Origin: a virus | Strand: one strand, 5' to 3' | Length of the DNA stretch: 17,466 nt | UHGV virus genome: UHGV-0282409 | Shown here: positions 13,041 to 17,466 of the stretch, piece by piece | How positions within the stretch are numbered: the first letter of the stretch is position 1 | Layout of the letters: every line of letters starts with the position of its first letter | The notes under the pieces: generated by a model | Told to the model about the DNA's origin: nothing | Seen by the model: only the letters and a program-made list of their open reading frames with translations | The model's database searches: none | Translations under genes and position numbers: made by a program

Positions 13041-13526
13041 GTTCAGGGAAACCAGATAGGTTTTGTTGGCTACGGTCTCTGGGGTGTTGCCCATGTAGTT
13101 CATCACCTTGGCGCAAACTACCACCTCGTCGCCTTCCTTGAGTTCAGGGTCGCTGGCGGTCCATTTCTTGTTGCCCAGATAGAGTGAGCGGAAGATGTAG
13201 AACTTCTCGCTGCTCTCGTCATCGGCGATGTAGAACGAACCGTTGCCGAAGTTGGTAGAGAACTGCTCCTTGATGCTCACTACCTTGCCCTTGATATAGA
13301 CCTCTTTGTCAGACTCCACGCCTGCCTCCAGGGTCTTGCAATAGTTGATAGCTGCAATGCTGTTGAATGGGTCGGCAGCAGTACCTGTACCCTTTGGCTC
13401 GCCCTCTGTGGTGCCACCGGCATCAGGCTTGGTAGGCTGTGTGTAAGGCTCTGGTACGTCCTCGCAGCTGCTGAATGTGAAGGCAGCCATAGCCGCCATC
13501 AAAACTGAAAATATATACTTTTTCAT
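13041..13526 (-). CDS. Bacteroidales-type lipoprotein (~160 aa), paralogous to the C-terminal domain of the 407-aa lipoprotein; lacks its own stop
   Basis: ATG 13524-13526; MKKYIFSVLMAAMAAFTFSSC is a lipoprotein signal peptide with lipobox Cys. The body (...ADPFNSIAAINYCKTLEAGVESDKEVYIKGKVVSIKEQFSTNFGNGSFYIADD...GDEVVVCAKVMNYMGNT...) aligns with the C-terminal ~110 aa of the neighbouring protein (...KPYTVAQALEKINAGTAGDAKVYATGIIVKVKDVDTGQYGNGTFVISDD...GKKVVVSGTLLDYNGT...). Reads in frame into the terminase fragment. Confidence 0.65.
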
Positions 13527-13570
13527 ATTATTGTCTTTTTAAATATTGTTACTATTTTGATAATCAGTAA

Positions 13571-14794: not shown

Positions 14795-14865
14795 TGTTCT
14801 TTCTTTTTATTGTTATAGAGAAACGGGATTGCTCCCTGTTCTTTATGTTAAAGAGAAACTGCTCT

Positions 14866-17466
14866 TTAGAATCTGTAAGATACCTGGAACATGCCGTTGG
14901 TACCCCAGGTGTAATACTTCTTAGGATTCTTTGAGAACTGGTAGAGGCGTGGATTCTTCACGTTGCCGTTAGCATCCAGTGTATAGCTTGAACGAGAGTT
15001 CTGCTCATATCCGCCTGTTACGATGGTCTGGTTGTTCAGCAGGTTGGTAATCATGAGGTTGAAGTTGAGAGAACCCTTCTTCAGTCTCACGCTCTTGCCT
15101 ATGCTCAGGTCAACCATCCATCCTCCGTGACCCTTCTCCTGGGCTACAGCATCCTCAGTCCAACTCATACCGTCGAGAGTAGTAGGAGCAAAGATTTCAG
15201 GGAATGCCTTGTAGGCAGCCTGGCGGTTGGTCAGCACCTTCTCATATCTGTAGCTTGGAGAATAAGAGAGGTAGATGCGGTCGTAGTAGGTGGCATTGAG
15301 GTTGACGAACCATCCGTTTACGTGGGCATCGAGACCGATGCTTCCCACTGTGAGCGGTGTGCCACTCTCGCGCATATTCATCACGTAAGCCTTGTCCTGG
15401 TAAACCTCAGCACTCTTTGAGAGCATGTATACGGCGTTTACATTGTTGATGTTCTTCGCCTCGCTCATAGCGCCCAGAGTCTTCAGGTCGAGCCATGATG
15501 TAAGCTTGAACTTAGCGCCCACCTCTACACCATAGTATTCCTTCTTCAGTCCGGTCATGCTCACGTAGGTGAATGAATTCTCATCATCGTTGTAGAAGTT
15601 CTGCCATTCCGTAACGTTCTCCAGTCGGCTGTAGTAACCGCTCACGTTGGCACTCAGCCATGCGTTGCGATACAGATAGCTGAATTCAGAGCTGAAGATG
15701 CGCTCGTTCTTGAGGTTAGTCACGAAGTCGTTGCTGATTTCAGGCGAGATGAAGGCTGTGCTTGCCATCGGCGCACGCAGCTCGTATCCGGCTCCGATGC
15801 TGAAGGCATGGCCTCTGCCCATATCCACGTTCAGGCTTCCCTTTACGCCACCGTCCAGGAAGTTGGCTGTGCCGCTCTTGCCCTGGCTGTTGTTCGGTGC
15901 CATACCATTGCTCATGTAGCCGCGGCGGTTCATTCCGGTATATCCGATACGTCCGCTCAGCATCGCCTTCATATTGTAGAATTCGGCAGTATAGGTGCTC
16001 CATGCGTTTGCCTTGTTTACGTCGATGCGATAGTCGTAACCGAACTTGTCACCCTCGTAAACCAGCTTGCCTGTGTTGTTAGGACCGGCTGTGTTCAGGT
16101 CGTACTGCACACGTGGGTCGGTCTTAGGATAATCGCCCAAGGCATAGGTGTTGATGTTGTGGAAGATGGCACCGCCCAGCATGTCTTCCAATGTCTGATA
16201 GTGCTGGTTGGTACTCTTTCCGAGCATGATACCCGTGGCCAGGTTCGATTTCTTGGTCAGCTTGGTGTTCAGCACGGATGACAGGGTCAGGGTCAGGTTG
16301 TCGTTGTGCTTAGCCTGAACATAGTAGAGCAGATCCTGTCCGTTCTTGGCTGCCTGCTGGTTGGCATAGTACAGGCGGTCCCAGTTGATCTGGCGGTTCT
16401 GCTTGCTTGCCTGCCAGTAGTTTACGGCGTTGTTCCAGTTTTCCCAGGTATACATGTTGTTGCCGTTCTTGTAGTCGCCCCATACATAGTAGTTGGCTGA
16501 TGGCATGTTCTTCCAGTAGTCTGGCTGTGGATTCTCAGCGTTGTTGTAGTTGAGCTTGGTGCTCTTGTACATAGAGTATTTTCCGAACACCGATGTGGTG
16601 AGCTTCATCTGGTCGTTGATTTCCCAGTCCCATGTAGCGATAGCCGAAGGAGCAAAGTCGTTCACTACGCGTGAGTTTCTCTTGTGTCCGTTCTGATATC
16701 CCCAGTATGGGTTATACTGGTAGTCGTTTGCCAGCCAGTAAGCCTCGTCGGTAGATGCTCCCTGGGTGCTTCTTTCTGTCGGGTTACCCCATGTTGAGAA
16801 GCTCAGCGAGTGGCCGTTCATCCACTTCTTCTGTACACCGAAGAAATAGGAGAGGGCGTTGTAGATGGTTCCCTCTACGTATCCCTGGTTAGCCCAGCGG
16901 TAGGTGAGACCGGCTGTAATGGCCCATCCCTTCTCGTTGAATCCGCTGGAGTAGGAGTAGAGTCCGCGCAGGGTATAATTGCGGTTGGCAACACCTACGC
17001 TGGCATACTGTCCTTCCTGCATGCTTCCGGCACGGAAATCATAGTTGTTGGAGCCTGCCATGCCCGTCATCGAATAGCCGTTGGCTTCGAAAGGCAGGGC
17101 GAAGTCTACGTTTCTGGAGAATCGGTTCAAACCGCCGATGTTGGAGAAACGGAACTGTCCGGTCTCCATATCGTTCATGGAAGCACCGTTGATATAGACA
17201 TCGTTGTACTTCTGGTTGAAGGCACGGTAGCGGAAACGTGCTGGCGAGAACAGGTAACCTGCCTGGCTCGCGTATACGTTGCTGGTAGAATTGAGGATGG
17301 TGACATTGGATGACATGTCATCGTCCTCGCCCAACTGTGCCTCGGAGAAGGTGAAAGCATTCTCGTCGAGTCCCTGGGCTATGTTCTGGTCAGTCTTTTC
17401 GTTCTGAGCCATAGCCAATGAACACGAGAAGAGCGCTAACATTGCTAAGTTTACTTTCTTCTGCAT
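14866..17466 (-). CDS. outer-membrane beta-barrel protein, 866 aa (TonB-dependent-receptor-like or porin-like; family unresolved)
   Basis: ATG is the last 3 nt of the window (17464-17466). MQKKVNLAMLALFSCSLAMAQNE... signal peptide; Tyr/Trp/Asn/Gly-rich with alternating polar/aromatic strands; C-terminal ...GTNGMFQVSYRF with terminal Phe, typical of outer-membrane barrels. No canonical TonB box or clear plug recognised by eye. Confidence 0.7.
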   Translation of the reverse strand: MQKKVNLAMLALFSCSLAMAQNEKTDQNIAQGLDENAFTFSEAQLGEDDDMSSNVTILNSTSNVYASQAGYLFSPARFRYRAFNQKYNDVYINGASMNDMETGQFRFSNIGGLNRFSRNVDFALPFEANGYSMTGMAGSNNYDFRAGSMQEGQYASVGVANRNYTLRGLYSYSSGFNEKGWAITAGLTYRWANQGYVEGTIYNALSYFFGVQKKWMNGHSLSFSTWGNPTERSTQGASTDEAYWLANDYQYNPYWGYQNGHKRNSRVVNDFAPSAIATWDWEINDQMKLTTSVFGKYSMYKSTKLNYNNAENPQPDYWKNMPSANYYVWGDYKNGNNMYTWENWNNAVNYWQASKQNRQINWDRLYYANQQAAKNGQDLLYYVQAKHNDNLTLTLSSVLNTKLTKKSNLATGIMLGKSTNQHYQTLEDMLGGAIFHNINTYALGDYPKTDPRVQYDLNTAGPNNTGKLVYEGDKFGYDYRIDVNKANAWSTYTAEFYNMKAMLSGRIGYTGMNRRGYMSNGMAPNNSQGKSGTANFLDGGVKGSLNVDMGRGHAFSIGAGYELRAPMASTAFISPEISNDFVTNLKNERIFSSEFSYLYRNAWLSANVSGYYSRLENVTEWQNFYNDDENSFTYVSMTGLKKEYYGVEVGAKFKLTSWLDLKTLGAMSEAKNINNVNAVYMLSKSAEVYQDKAYVMNMRESGTPLTVGSIGLDAHVNGWFVNLNATYYDRIYLSYSPSYRYEKVLTNRQAAYKAFPEIFAPTTLDGMSWTEDAVAQEKGHGGWMVDLSIGKSVRLKKGSLNFNLMITNLLNNQTIVTGGYEQNSRSSYTLDANGNVKNPRLYQFSKNPKKYYTWGTNGMFQVSYRF

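What the first reader, a model, noticed from the sequence alone, without database searches (positions are those of the whole stretch)
13041..17466. Uncharacterised Bacteroidales three-gene surface module: large beta-barrel plus two lipoproteins sharing a domain
Three co-directional genes with short AT-rich spacers encode an 866-aa outer-membrane barrel, a 407-aa lipoprotein and a ~160-aa lipoprotein. The small lipoprotein is a paralogue of the C-terminal domain of the larger one, with a shared pattern around VY..G.VV.IK...G.NG.F.I.DD. The architecture resembles outer-membrane binding/uptake complexes, but I could not match it to SusC/SusD or any named family by eye. The shared domain looks like a small beta-barrel, possibly OB-like. 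This is the best candidate in the window for an undescribed system.
Basis: partly seen in the sequence, partly recalled or inferred. Interest (0 to 1): 0.6.

Follow-up and report, generated by a model that had tools for sequence, protein, structure and literature searches.

The report
Known DNA-uptake locus, chimeric window
The three genes are the outer-membrane core of a Bacteroidales DNA-utilization system first described in 2021 and 2025, here from a Segatella (Prevotella copri group) gut bacterium. The "small third lipoprotein" is an artefact: the window is a blunt join between that bacterial DNA and an E. coli phage.

Summary
The three co-directional genes exist, on the minus strand. They encode an 866-aa barrel, a 407-aa DUF5689 lipoprotein and a third lipoprotein that shares an OB-like domain with the second (BLASTP 3e-12 and 6e-14).

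The third gene is not about 160 aa. At 13032/13033 the window switches with at most 1 nt of overlap from Segatella DNA to an E. coli lambdoid prophage. That phage half is 99.7% identical to phage vB_EcoS-705R7, and the break lies mid-terL. The result is a 439-aa chimeric ORF. Two independent assemblies read through the junction with a 475-aa native gene carrying two OB copies.

In 77 of 77 testable related loci a DUF5689 gene lies directly downstream. Nucleases flank most loci: Exo_endo_phos_3 in 69 of 80 and Endonuclease_NS in 53 of 80.

This is the ddbC-ddbD-ddbE architecture of Sharan et al. [quoted passage not shown] I file it as a new member of a known kind. I could not compare it directly with the published DdbC sequences.

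The parts
14866..17466 (-). ddbC-like outer-membrane TonB-dependent-transporter-fold barrel, 866 aa. The window ends exactly at its ATG.
17407..17466 (-). SPI signal peptide, aa 1-20, MQKKVNLAMLALFSCSLAMA|Q
   Evidence: Read from the sequence. The A-Q at the cleavage site is invariant in the alignments. Assigned by eye; no signal-peptide predictor was available.
17332..17358 (-). Candidate TonB box AFTFSEAQL (aa 37-45), followed by the acidic patch GEDDD
   Evidence: Invariant among 46 Prevotellaceae homologues. An alternating-hydrophobic strand plus acidic patch sits at the same place across the wider family, directly after the CarboxypepD_reg extension where that is present. It lies in the only disordered segment of the model. 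This is an inference.
17029..17298 (-). Short N-terminal folded domain, aa 57-146, read as a reduced plug. It contains the RF+.R.....Y...Y.NG...N motif.
14795..14865 (.). 71-bp AT-rich spacer, GC 0.34
   Evidence: No terminator-like site on the minus (coding) strand.
13571..14794 (-). ddbD-like surface lipoprotein, 407 aa. It has lipobox LGSC; the DUF5689 domain is aa 47-287 (13934..14656); the C-terminal OB-like domain is aa 292-407 (13574..13921).
   Evidence: Pfam DUF5689 1.8e-67. NCBIfam M949_1556-family lipoprotein 5.5e-31, below the cut-off. OB domain HMM 8.8e-32. A DUF5689 gene lies 9-229 bp downstream of the barrel in 77 of 77 testable loci.
13527..13570 (.). 44-bp AT-rich spacer, GC 0.16
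13033..13526 (-). 5' fragment (164 codons + 2 nt) of a ddbE-like surface lipoprotein gene. It holds the lipobox FSSC followed by EDVPEPY and the first OB-like domain (13035..13394). The native gene is 475 aa.
   Evidence: 100% identical to L001 and L002, where the gene continues to 475 aa with a second OB copy and a C-terminal domain. OB HMM 3.6e-46 and 6.6e-43.
13032..13033 (.). Chimeric junction between Segatella DNA and E. coli prophage DNA. The join is blunt, with at most 1 nt of overlap.
   Evidence: The junction 38-mer is absent from IMG/VR and JGI metagenome contigs. The fusion protein is not on record. GC shifts from 0.58 to about 0.48-0.52.
12207..13032 (-). 3' half of an E. coli lambdoid-phage terL, fused in frame by chance. 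Not part of the module.
   Evidence: PHROG 2699 terminase large subunit 1.5e-93. 100% identical to terL of E. coli chromosomes up to window position 13033. terL is 553 aa in JQ347801.

Best explanation
**What it is.** Window 13033-17466 is the outer-membrane core of a Ddb-type nucleic-acid utilization and uptake locus (ddbC-ddbD-ddbE-like). It comes from a Segatella species and is cut off inside the third gene by a non-biological join to E. coli phage DNA.

**Proposed mechanism**
1. The third protein is a surface lipoprotein. Natively it carries two tandem OB-fold domains plus a C-terminal domain, and relatives carry 0-5 OB copies. It captures extracellular DNA, and possibly RNA, at the cell surface in the way SusE/F-type accessory binders do.
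2. A surface lipoprotein nuclease (Endonuclease_NS, SPII signal with the export-like motif CGTDD) is encoded just downstream in the native locus. It cuts the polymer.
3. The DUF5689 lipoprotein, which here carries one extra OB domain, sits on the barrel as the substrate-binding lid.
4. The 866-aa barrel is a divergent TonB-dependent transporter with a reduced plug and a candidate TonB box. It imports the fragments into the periplasm.
5. An SPI-type Exo_endo_phos_3 nuclease, encoded divergently upstream, degrades the fragments further in the periplasm. Uridine kinase and a deoxyinosine-glycosylase-like protein are encoded in that divergent gene string.

**Shown here:** gene content, domain identities, the TBDT fold, the very tight barrel-DUF5689 synteny, the nuclease linkage and the chimeric junction.

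**Taken from papers:** DNA depletion depends on ddbABCDEF in B. thetaiotaomicron. An AF3 model predicts a DdbC/DdbD complex. RA0C_RS04915 and RA0C_RS04920 are essential for transformation in R. anatipestifer, and tonBA mutation inhibits transformation there.

**Inferred:** substrate binding by the OB domains, surface exposure, TonB dependence, and that this Segatella locus has the same activity.
For: **DUF5689 partner.** The partner lipoprotein is DUF5689 (1.8e-67). The Sharan paper says DdbD is annotated as this family, and the Huang paper finds the same domain in RA0C_RS04920.

**Barrel family links (53 diverse relatives).** 34 carry the CarbopepD_reg_2 N-terminal extension, which corresponds to the RA0C_RS04915 annotation. 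19 hit Plug. 3 hit TonB_dep_Rec_b-barrel. The family profile also matches a SusC N-terminal extension (9hfj, 2.7e-5) and OprC (4e-4).

**Synteny over 80 Prevotellaceae/Bacteroidaceae genomes.**
- DUF5689 gene directly downstream: 77 of 80. The other three contigs end within 115 bp.
- Exo_endo_phos_3 upstream: 69 of 80.
- Endonuclease_NS downstream: 53 of 80.
- The same order is seen in P. nigrescens and P. brunnea.

**OB domain.** PF01336 at 30.1 bits against a GA cut-off of 27. 12 of 24 copies hit PF01336 and 2 hit DUF6359. The best PDB profile hit is an SSB (4gs3, E 0.0098).

**Export signals.** Lipoboxes are present in 72 of 77 DUF5689 proteins and 69 of 75 third proteins. The nucleases carry SPI and SPII signals respectively.

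**Literature.** PMC12478041, PMC8459023, PMC8383284.
Against: - I could not compare the barrel directly with the published DdbC sequences (WP_008762511.1, WP_055220680.1, WP_005843284.1, WP_117829583.1) or with RA0C_RS04915. The supplements are not held, afdb50 is unavailable, and neither B. thetaiotaomicron nor P. vulgatus appeared among the 80 loci kept. The link to Ddb therefore rests on shared domain families and locus architecture.
- The window protein itself has no Pfam or NCBIfam hit. It lacks the CarboxypepD_reg extension that most relatives have.
- Its N-terminal folded domain is only about 90 residues.
- hhalign against one canonical TBDT was not significant.
- The PNAS paper does not mention Prevotella or Segatella.
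- No functional data exist for this locus.
- The OB assignment is weak at the level of single domains. No single stretch passes on its own, and the PDB hit is borderline.
- The DUF5689-family gene M949_1556 of R. anatipestifer was reported in connection with antigenicity and LPS phenotypes.
Confidence: 0.8

Rival explanations
1. The module is the outer-membrane DNA import step of natural transformation, as in Riemerella anatipestifer. It would take up long DNA for recombination rather than feed a catabolic or salvage pathway.
For: The DUF5689 partner and the barrel family with a CarboxypepD_reg extension correspond to RA0C_RS04920 and RA0C_RS04915, both essential for transformation. tonBA mutation inhibits transformation without lowering iron uptake. 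Multiple OB domains would suit the capture of long DNA.
Against: The locus is flanked by two nucleases, one of them a predicted surface lipoprotein, in most genomes. The gene tables within about 8-10 kb show no ComEC, DprA or ComF in L001, L004 or L005. Sharan et al. report inconsistent results when testing DNA uptake in gut Bacteroidales. The neighbouring uridine kinase points to salvage.
Confidence: 0.12
2. It is a TonB-dependent transporter with accessory lipoproteins for a substrate other than nucleic acid, for example a metal, a vitamin or a glycan. On this reading the nuclease neighbours are coincidental.
For: The closest solved folds are metal, siderophore and B12 transporters, including B. 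theta BtuB1, which also works with a surface lipoprotein. The DUF5689-family gene M949_1556 was linked to antigenicity and LPS phenotypes in R. anatipestifer.
Against: Nuclease linkage is conserved in 69 of 80 and 53 of 80 loci spanning 38-87% barrel identity. The repeated domain belongs to the nucleic-acid-binding OB group. There is genetic evidence for DNA depletion and transformation in loci of the same architecture. Fold similarity among TBDTs does not report substrate.
Confidence: 0.06
3. One reading: a so-far undescribed three-gene system whose third member is a free-standing ~160-aa single-domain lipoprotein.
For: The barrel has no Pfam or NCBIfam model. The shared domain has no dedicated Pfam family apart from DUF6359, which only some copies hit.
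Against: There is no stop codon. The native gene is 475 aa in two assemblies. In 75 related loci the third protein is 130-862 aa, with only two under 275 aa. The system was published in 2021 and 2025.
Confidence: 0.02
4. The junction is biological. On this reading a phage carries the surface module as cargo, or a prophage has inserted into the third gene.
For: The ORF reads through in frame for 439 aa.
Against: - The phage half is an E. coli lambdoid prophage (99.7% to vB_EcoS-705R7; 100% to E. coli chromosomes), a different phylum from the Segatella half.
- The break is in the middle of terL, not at a phage end or att site.
- The join is blunt, with at most 1 nt shared.
- None of 5,426 E. coli genomes extends past it.
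- Two assemblies read through with native sequence.
- The junction is absent from IMG/VR and JGI contigs.
- An in-frame join has a one-in-three chance.
Confidence: 0.02

Closest known systems
ddbABCDEF DNA-utilization locus of Bacteroides thetaiotaomicron, with its Bt1/Bt2/Pv1/Pv2 subtypes (Sharan et al., PNAS 2025, PMC12478041)
   Same: - An outer-membrane transporter annotated as TonB-dependent (DdbC), followed directly by a DUF5689 protein (DdbD) and then an SPII protein of unknown domain (DdbE).
- Secreted nucleases in the locus, carrying one SPI and one SPII signal.
- A PUL-like logic in a Bacteroidales host.
   Different: - The host is Segatella/Prevotella, which the paper does not mention.
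- Sequence identity to the four reference DdbC proteins is untested.
- The native gene order is nuclease (divergent) - C - D - E - rpmE (L31) - nuclease, not a six-gene ABCDEF string.
- The barrel lacks the CarboxypepD_reg N-terminal extension.
- The DUF5689 protein carries an extra OB domain, seen in only 8 of 78 loci.
- The E-like protein is built from tandem OB repeats.
Riemerella anatipestifer natural-transformation outer-membrane pair RA0C_RS04915 / RA0C_RS04920 (Huang et al. 2021, PMC8459023)
   Same: A barrel family whose members mostly carry a carboxypeptidase-regulatory-like N-terminal domain, partnered with a DUF5689 protein. The role proposed there is moving DNA across the outer membrane.
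   Different: - The R. anatipestifer partner also has a DUF5017 / choice-of-anchor J domain.
- The comEC gene (RA0C_RS04895) has a nearby locus-tag number there, whereas none is seen within about 8-10 kb of the native and Prevotella loci examined.
- The phenotype there is transformation, while here the nuclease context suggests degradation and salvage.
Classical TonB-dependent transporters working with surface lipoproteins (B. theta BtuB1-BtuG1, PDB 8blw; XusA-XusB, 9gbc) and SusCD/RagAB
   Different: - No Pfam Plug or TonB_dep_Rec hit for this protein.
- The plug-like domain is only about 90 aa.
- The partner is DUF5689 rather than SusD, BtuG or XusB.
OB-fold nucleic-acid-binding domains (Pfam PF01336/PF13742; DUF6359; SSB)
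   Same: Weak but repeated profile matches. The domain is a five-strand-type small barrel of about 115 aa. Sharan et al. report that DdbD resembles the tandem-OB HIN domain of p202.
   Different: The domain is extracellular, lipoprotein-borne and present in 0-5 tandem copies. It has a conserved N-terminal G(T/S)...P(F/Y)(N/T)V..A helix motif that is not part of PF01336. No binding data exist.

Membership tests
Ddb DNA-utilization locus (Sharan 2025) | A DdbC homologue anchors the locus. The paper's criterion is BLASTP at >50% identity and >75% coverage to one of four reference DdbC proteins for subtype assignment; the Bt and Pv types share only about 25% identity. | not testable with these tools
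   The reference sequences could not be retrieved. No supplements are held, afdb50 is unavailable, and B. theta and P. vulgatus are not among the 80 loci kept. Indirect support only: NCBI names the homologues 'TonB-dependent receptor', and the fold is TBDT.
Ddb DNA-utilization locus (Sharan 2025) | A DUF5689 protein (DdbD) encoded directly next to the transporter | tested here: met
   Pfam DUF5689 1.8e-67, with the gene 71 bp downstream. True of 77 of 77 testable related loci.
Ddb DNA-utilization locus (Sharan 2025) | An additional SPII (lipoprotein) protein of unknown domain downstream (DdbE) | tested here: met
   Lipobox FSSC followed by EDVPEPY. 69 of 75 related third proteins have a lipobox. 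Homology to B. theta DdbE itself was not tested.
Ddb DNA-utilization locus (Sharan 2025) | Secreted or periplasmic nucleases encoded in the locus | tested here: met
   This holds in the native context, not in the window. Exo_endo_phos_3 6.2e-88 with an SPI signal, and Endonuclease_NS 2.4e-31 with an SPII signal. Present in 69 of 80 and 53 of 80 loci.
Ddb DNA-utilization locus (Sharan 2025) | The locus is required for depletion of exogenous DNA | not testable with these tools
   This needs genetics in a Segatella strain.
TonB-dependent transporter | A 22-stranded outer-membrane beta-barrel | tested here: met
TonB-dependent transporter | An N-terminal plug domain (Pfam PF07715) | tested here: inconclusive
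   No Plug hit for the window protein, while 19 of 53 relatives hit it, best 8.3e-7. The model has a confident folded domain of about 90 aa at residues 57-146, shorter than a canonical plug. Its position inside the barrel could not be inspected.
TonB-dependent transporter | A TonB box near the N-terminus | tested here: inconclusive
   The candidate AFTFSEAQL (aa 37-45) is invariant in 46 homologues, and a similar strand plus acidic patch occurs family-wide. No interaction test is possible.
TonB-dependent transporter | A sequence-profile match to the barrel family (PF00593 or NCBIfam TBDT models) | tested here: not met
   No families for the window protein. 3 of 53 relatives hit PF00593 at 2.1e-11. 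The family profile matches OprC at 4e-4. This is a very divergent branch.
SusC/SusD polysaccharide-utilization pair | A SusD-like (RagB) partner and a SusC-type barrel with an N-terminal extension | tested here: not met
R. anatipestifer transformation pair RA0C_RS04915/04920 | A barrel with a CarboxypepD_reg domain, a partner with DUF5689 plus DUF5017, and a transformation phenotype | tested here: inconclusive
   DUF5689 is met. CarboxypepD_reg is absent here but present in 34 of 53 relatives and in an 84%-identical homologue, P0004. DUF5017 was not found. The phenotype is not testable.
OB-fold nucleic-acid-binding domain (PF01336 group) | A profile match above the gathering score | tested here: inconclusive
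   The native 475-aa protein scores 30.1 bits against 27, but no single stretch passes alone. The 407-aa protein scores 16.7 bits, below the cut-off. 12 of 24 domain copies score E<=0.01. The SSB 4gs3 hit has E 0.0098. No structure model of the domain was made.

The most novel reading that the evidence does not exclude
The Segatella/Prevotella loci form a further Ddb type outside the four published subtypes. Its features would be a transporter lacking the N-terminal extension, a DUF5689 lid that has acquired an OB domain, and an accessory lipoprotein built from a variable array (0-5) of OB repeats that binds single-stranded DNA or RNA. It would be coupled to a divergent operon encoding a periplasmic nuclease, a deoxyinosine-glycosylase-like protein and uridine kinase. 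On this reading it could be a route for RNA or ssDNA scavenging, or even for DNA import for transformation, in one of the most abundant human gut genera.
Probability: 0.15. Interest if true: 0.55.

Novelty: new member of a known kind. Interest (0 to 1): 0.25.

Why it matters
Extracellular DNA uptake across the Bacteroidota outer membrane was only recently assigned to the DdbC/DdbD-type transporter. This analysis shows the same architecture is essentially universal and tightly syntenic in Prevotellaceae. The closest homologue cluster has more than 11,000 member sequences in metagenomes. It also shows that the accessory DNA-binding module is a shuffled OB repeat.

That is useful context for the published system rather than a discovery. 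There are two practical lessons:
- The window is a chimera, so any gene call that crosses 13032/13033 is spurious.
- Pfam and NCBIfam still lack a model for this barrel family, so such loci keep looking "unknown" to sequence-only readers.

Tried and rejected
**Barrel searches that found nothing**
- Pfam and NCBIfam on the barrel: no hit.
- phmmer of the barrel and of both lipoproteins against PDB sequences: nothing useful.
- hhalign of the family profile against one canonical TBDT from L005: not significant, probability under 1%.

**Structure prediction**
- The first AF2 run used a shallow alignment of 46 sequences at 62-86% identity. It left residues 1-142 unmodelled at pLDDT below 50.
- That could have been misread as "no plug". 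It was rejected after the deeper alignment gave pLDDT 92.
- The alignments passed to the model lack Met1, so model residue n is protein residue n+1.

**Resources that were not available**
- Foldseek against afdb50, wanted for organism names: library not available.
- Supplements of the PNAS paper, wanted for the DdbC sequences: not held.
- The genome scan with the 134-sequence alignment failed for lack of a conserved stretch. Repeating it with 15 sequences returned only Prevotellaceae and Bacteroidaceae, without B. theta, P. vulgatus or Riemerella.
- The listing of cluster members on ten representatives gave no accession matching the published proteins.

**Junction and regulatory scans**
- Exact search for the chimeric fusion protein and for the junction 38-mer: absent everywhere.
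- The sigma-70 promoter and terminator scan found no more sites than shuffled controls and does not cover Bacteroidota promoters.

**Considered and rejected**
- Phage cargo or prophage insertion (see rivals).
- SusCD membership, because there is no SusD.

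
Full report
**1. What is in the sequence**

All long ORFs of the window are on the minus strand. The finding's region holds three features:
- an 866-aa ORF (17466..14866), which starts exactly at the last base of the window;
- a 407-aa ORF (14794..13571);
- an ORF that starts at 13526.

The two spacers are 71 bp and 44 bp and are AT-rich, with GC 0.34 and 0.16. The first protein starts with an SPI-type signal peptide (…AMA|Q) and ends in …SYRF. 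The second and third have lipoboxes, LGSC and FSSC.

**2. The third gene is not a 160-aa protein, because the window is a chimera**

The ORF from 13526 has no stop near 13041 and runs 439 aa to 12207. Its second half is the nuclease half of a phage large terminase (Pfam TerL_nuclease 2e-8; PHROG 2699 1.5e-93).

GC drops from about 0.58 to about 0.48-0.52 at this point.

The Segatella side:
- Window 13033..17466 is 100% identical to an ENA metagenome scaffold (L001) and to an independent Logan contig (L002).
- Both read on through the break with a different sequence. There the third gene is 475 aa.

The phage side:
- Window 1..13032 is 99.7% identical over its full length to Escherichia phage vB_EcoS-705R7, and 95-97% identical to Stx-converting phages.
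- The last 634 bases before the break are 100% identical to terL of many E. coli chromosomes.
- None of 5,426 E. coli genomes continues past window position 13033.
- In phage JLK-2012, terL is 553 aa, and the break falls about half-way along it.

The junction itself:
- The two sources share at most one base at the join.
- The fusion protein is not on record.
- The junction 38-mer is absent from IMG/VR and from the JGI metagenome contigs.

An E. coli lambdoid phage fused blunt, mid-gene, to Segatella chromosomal DNA is best read as an assembly, library or concatenation artefact. The in-frame read-through is a one-in-three accident.

**3. The native third protein**

In L001 the third protein has, in order:
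- a lipoprotein signal;
- OB-like domain 1 (aa 45-166);
- a Gly/Ser linker;
- OB-like domain 2 (aa 179-299, BLASTP 6e-14 to the 407-aa C-terminus);
- a C-terminal domain of about 170 aa.

The whole protein scores 30.1 bits on PF01336, the OB-fold nucleic-acid-binding domain (gathering score 27), although no single stretch passes alone. Of 24 diverse copies of the domain, 12 hit PF01336 and 2 hit DUF6359. A profile of the domain finds an SSB in the PDB at E 0.0098.

No structure model of the domain was made, because both prediction jobs went to the barrel.

**4. The barrel**

Sequence searches:
- It has no Pfam, NCBIfam or PDB sequence hit.
- It belongs to a large family. More than 4,104 proteins were found by word-seeded HMMER; NCBI names several 'TonB-dependent receptor' in Prevotella. 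There are 1,719 representatives of 50%-identity clusters at E<=1e-3.

Structure models:
- A first model from a shallow alignment left the N-terminal 142 residues unfolded.
- A second model, from 134 sequences reaching down to 26% identity, reached pLDDT 92 and pTM 0.89. Only residues ~17-56 are disordered. A folded domain at 57-146 is followed by about 22 long strands (model numbering is protein numbering minus one).

Family links:
- Among 53 diverse relatives, 34 carry the CarbopepD_reg_2 N-terminal extension, 19 hit Pfam Plug (best 8.3e-7) and 3 hit TonB_dep_Rec_b-barrel (2.1e-11).
- The family profile matches the N-terminal extension of a SusC homologue (9hfj, 2.7e-5) and OprC (4e-4).

The disordered segment holds AFTFSEAQL followed by GEDDD. 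This stretch is invariant in close homologues. Family-wide it recurs as an alternating-hydrophobic strand plus an acidic patch, sitting directly after the N-terminal extension. I read it as the TonB box, which is an inference.

The barrel is therefore a very divergent TonB-dependent-transporter-fold protein. Its plug is short, and in this clade it lacks the N-terminal extension. An 84%-identical homologue, P0004, has the extension.

**5. Gene neighbourhood**

The native scaffold reads, in order:
- on the opposite strand, running away from the barrel: Exo_endo_phos_3 nuclease (SPI signal), then a 189-aa deoxyinosine-glycosylase-like protein, then uridine kinase;
- on the barrel's strand: barrel, DUF5689, OB lipoprotein, rpmE (L31), then Endonuclease_NS (lipobox followed by GTDD).

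P. nigrescens and P. brunnea show the same core.

I scanned 80 loci from GTDB species genomes with barrel identity of 38-87%:

| Feature | Loci |
|---|---|
| DUF5689 gene 9-229 bp downstream, same strand | 77 of 80 (the other three contigs end within 115 bp) |
| Exo_endo_phos_3 gene upstream | 69 of 80 |
| Endonuclease_NS downstream | 53 of 80 |
| Uridine kinase gene | 34 of 80 |
| Glycosylase-like gene | 30 of 80 |

The OB module is mobile. Only 8 of 78 DUF5689 proteins carry it, and the third protein has between 0 and 5 tandem copies. It is conserved in kind, but variable in build, for the third gene.

**6. What is known**

A full-text search for DUF5689 found two relevant papers.

Huang et al. 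2021 (PMC8459023) showed by transposon mutagenesis that two R. anatipestifer genes are essential for natural transformation. One is RA0C_RS04915, an outer-membrane protein with a carboxypeptidase-regulatory-like domain. The other is RA0C_RS04920, which has DUF5689 plus DUF5017. The authors proposed that the pair moves DNA across the outer membrane. Zhang et al. 2021 (PMC8383284) found that tonBA mutation inhibits transformation without lowering iron uptake.

Sharan et al. 2025 (PMC12478041) described ddbABCDEF in B. thetaiotaomicron:
- three nucleases, DdbA, DdbB and DdbF;
- a TonB-dependent transporter, DdbC;
- a DUF5689 protein, DdbD, with an AF3-predicted complex with DdbC and resemblance to the p202 HIN DNA-binding domain;
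- an SPII protein, DdbE, likened to SusE/F.

Deleting the locus abolishes depletion of exogenous DNA and lowers uracil and xanthine in mice. The paper defines four subtypes.

The locus studied here has the same parts list and logic. The paper does not mention Prevotella or Segatella. I could not obtain the reference sequences, so direct homology of this barrel to DdbC remains untested.

**7. Mechanism and alternatives**

Most likely (0.8): a Ddb-type nucleic-acid capture, cleavage and import system, as set out under Best explanation.

Alternatives:
- **DNA import for transformation (0.12).** This is the same machine with a different downstream fate. The surface and periplasmic nucleases, the salvage genes and the absence of nearby competence genes argue against it.
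- **A non-nucleic-acid substrate (0.06).**
Rejected.
- **A biological phage junction (0.02).** Rejected.

**8. Verdict**

What remains new is modest:
- a Segatella/Prevotellaceae member, possibly a further subtype, of a known system;
- an OB-repeat accessory protein;
- a barrel lacking the N-terminal extension;
- linked salvage genes.

Interest 0.25; new member of a known kind.

Noticed in passing
window 1-13032, junction at 13032/13033: Three quarters of the window is an E. coli lambdoid (Stx-converting-like) prophage morphogenesis module running from the terL 3' half to the tail genes. It is joined blunt to Segatella DNA, so the window is a chimera of two phyla. The window also ends exactly on the ATG of the barrel gene.
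   Followed up: yes
window 7733-9994 (-): The phage portal ORF is 753 aa. PHROG 2271 has 859 positions and matches in two stretches. Megablast to related phages comes in two pieces, with about 170-320 nt more in the reference phages. This suggests an internal in-frame deletion in the portal gene. JLK-2012 annotates the portal as two CDSs.
   Followed up: no
L001 4669-6984 (native context, outside the window): Divergent from the barrel gene lies a three-gene string. It encodes a periplasmic Exo_endo_phos_3 nuclease, a 189-aa cytoplasmic protein resembling DNA-deoxyinosine (hypoxanthine-DNA) glycosylase (TIGR04274 5.5e-13, below the cut-off), and uridine kinase (equivalog, 284.7 bits). The last two recur in 30 and 34 of 80 related loci. 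This may bear on the 'unidentified downstream enzymes' for deaminated nucleobases mentioned by Sharan et al.
   Followed up: partly
L007-L086, genes downstream of the barrel: The OB-like domain behaves as a shuffled module. It is present on the DUF5689 protein in only 8 of 78 loci, and in 0-5 tandem copies on the third lipoprotein, whose length ranges from 130 to 862 aa. A few copies are of the DUF6359 type. The third proteins share a conserved N-terminus, ...FTSCEDVP.PY.
   Followed up: partly
P0004 / L006 1577-4492: A barrel homologue 84% identical to the window's carries a ~105-aa CarboxypepD_reg N-terminal extension that the window's protein and most close Prevotella homologues lack. The extension has therefore been gained or lost recently within the clade.
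   Followed up: no
window 13571-14794 (-): The DUF5689 lipoprotein also matches NCBIfam NF052645 'M949_1556 family lipoprotein' (5.5e-31, far below the cut-off). M949_1556 is an R. anatipestifer CH3 gene reported to affect antigenicity and pathogenicity and grouped with LPS-related genes (cited in PMC4976936). Whether it is the RA0C_RS04920 orthologue was not checked.
   Followed up: partly
L077 (CAVKKI010000096.1): A contig labelled Oribacterium sp. (Firmicutes) carries a complete barrel-DUF5689-OB-nuclease locus with 40% barrel identity. This is probably binning contamination by a Bacteroidales contig.
   Followed up: no
L001 14580-15946 (-): Two further small lipoproteins lie downstream of the Endonuclease_NS gene. 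Both have the acid-rich motif FTSCDDD right after the lipobox, and neither has a confident Pfam family.
   Followed up: no
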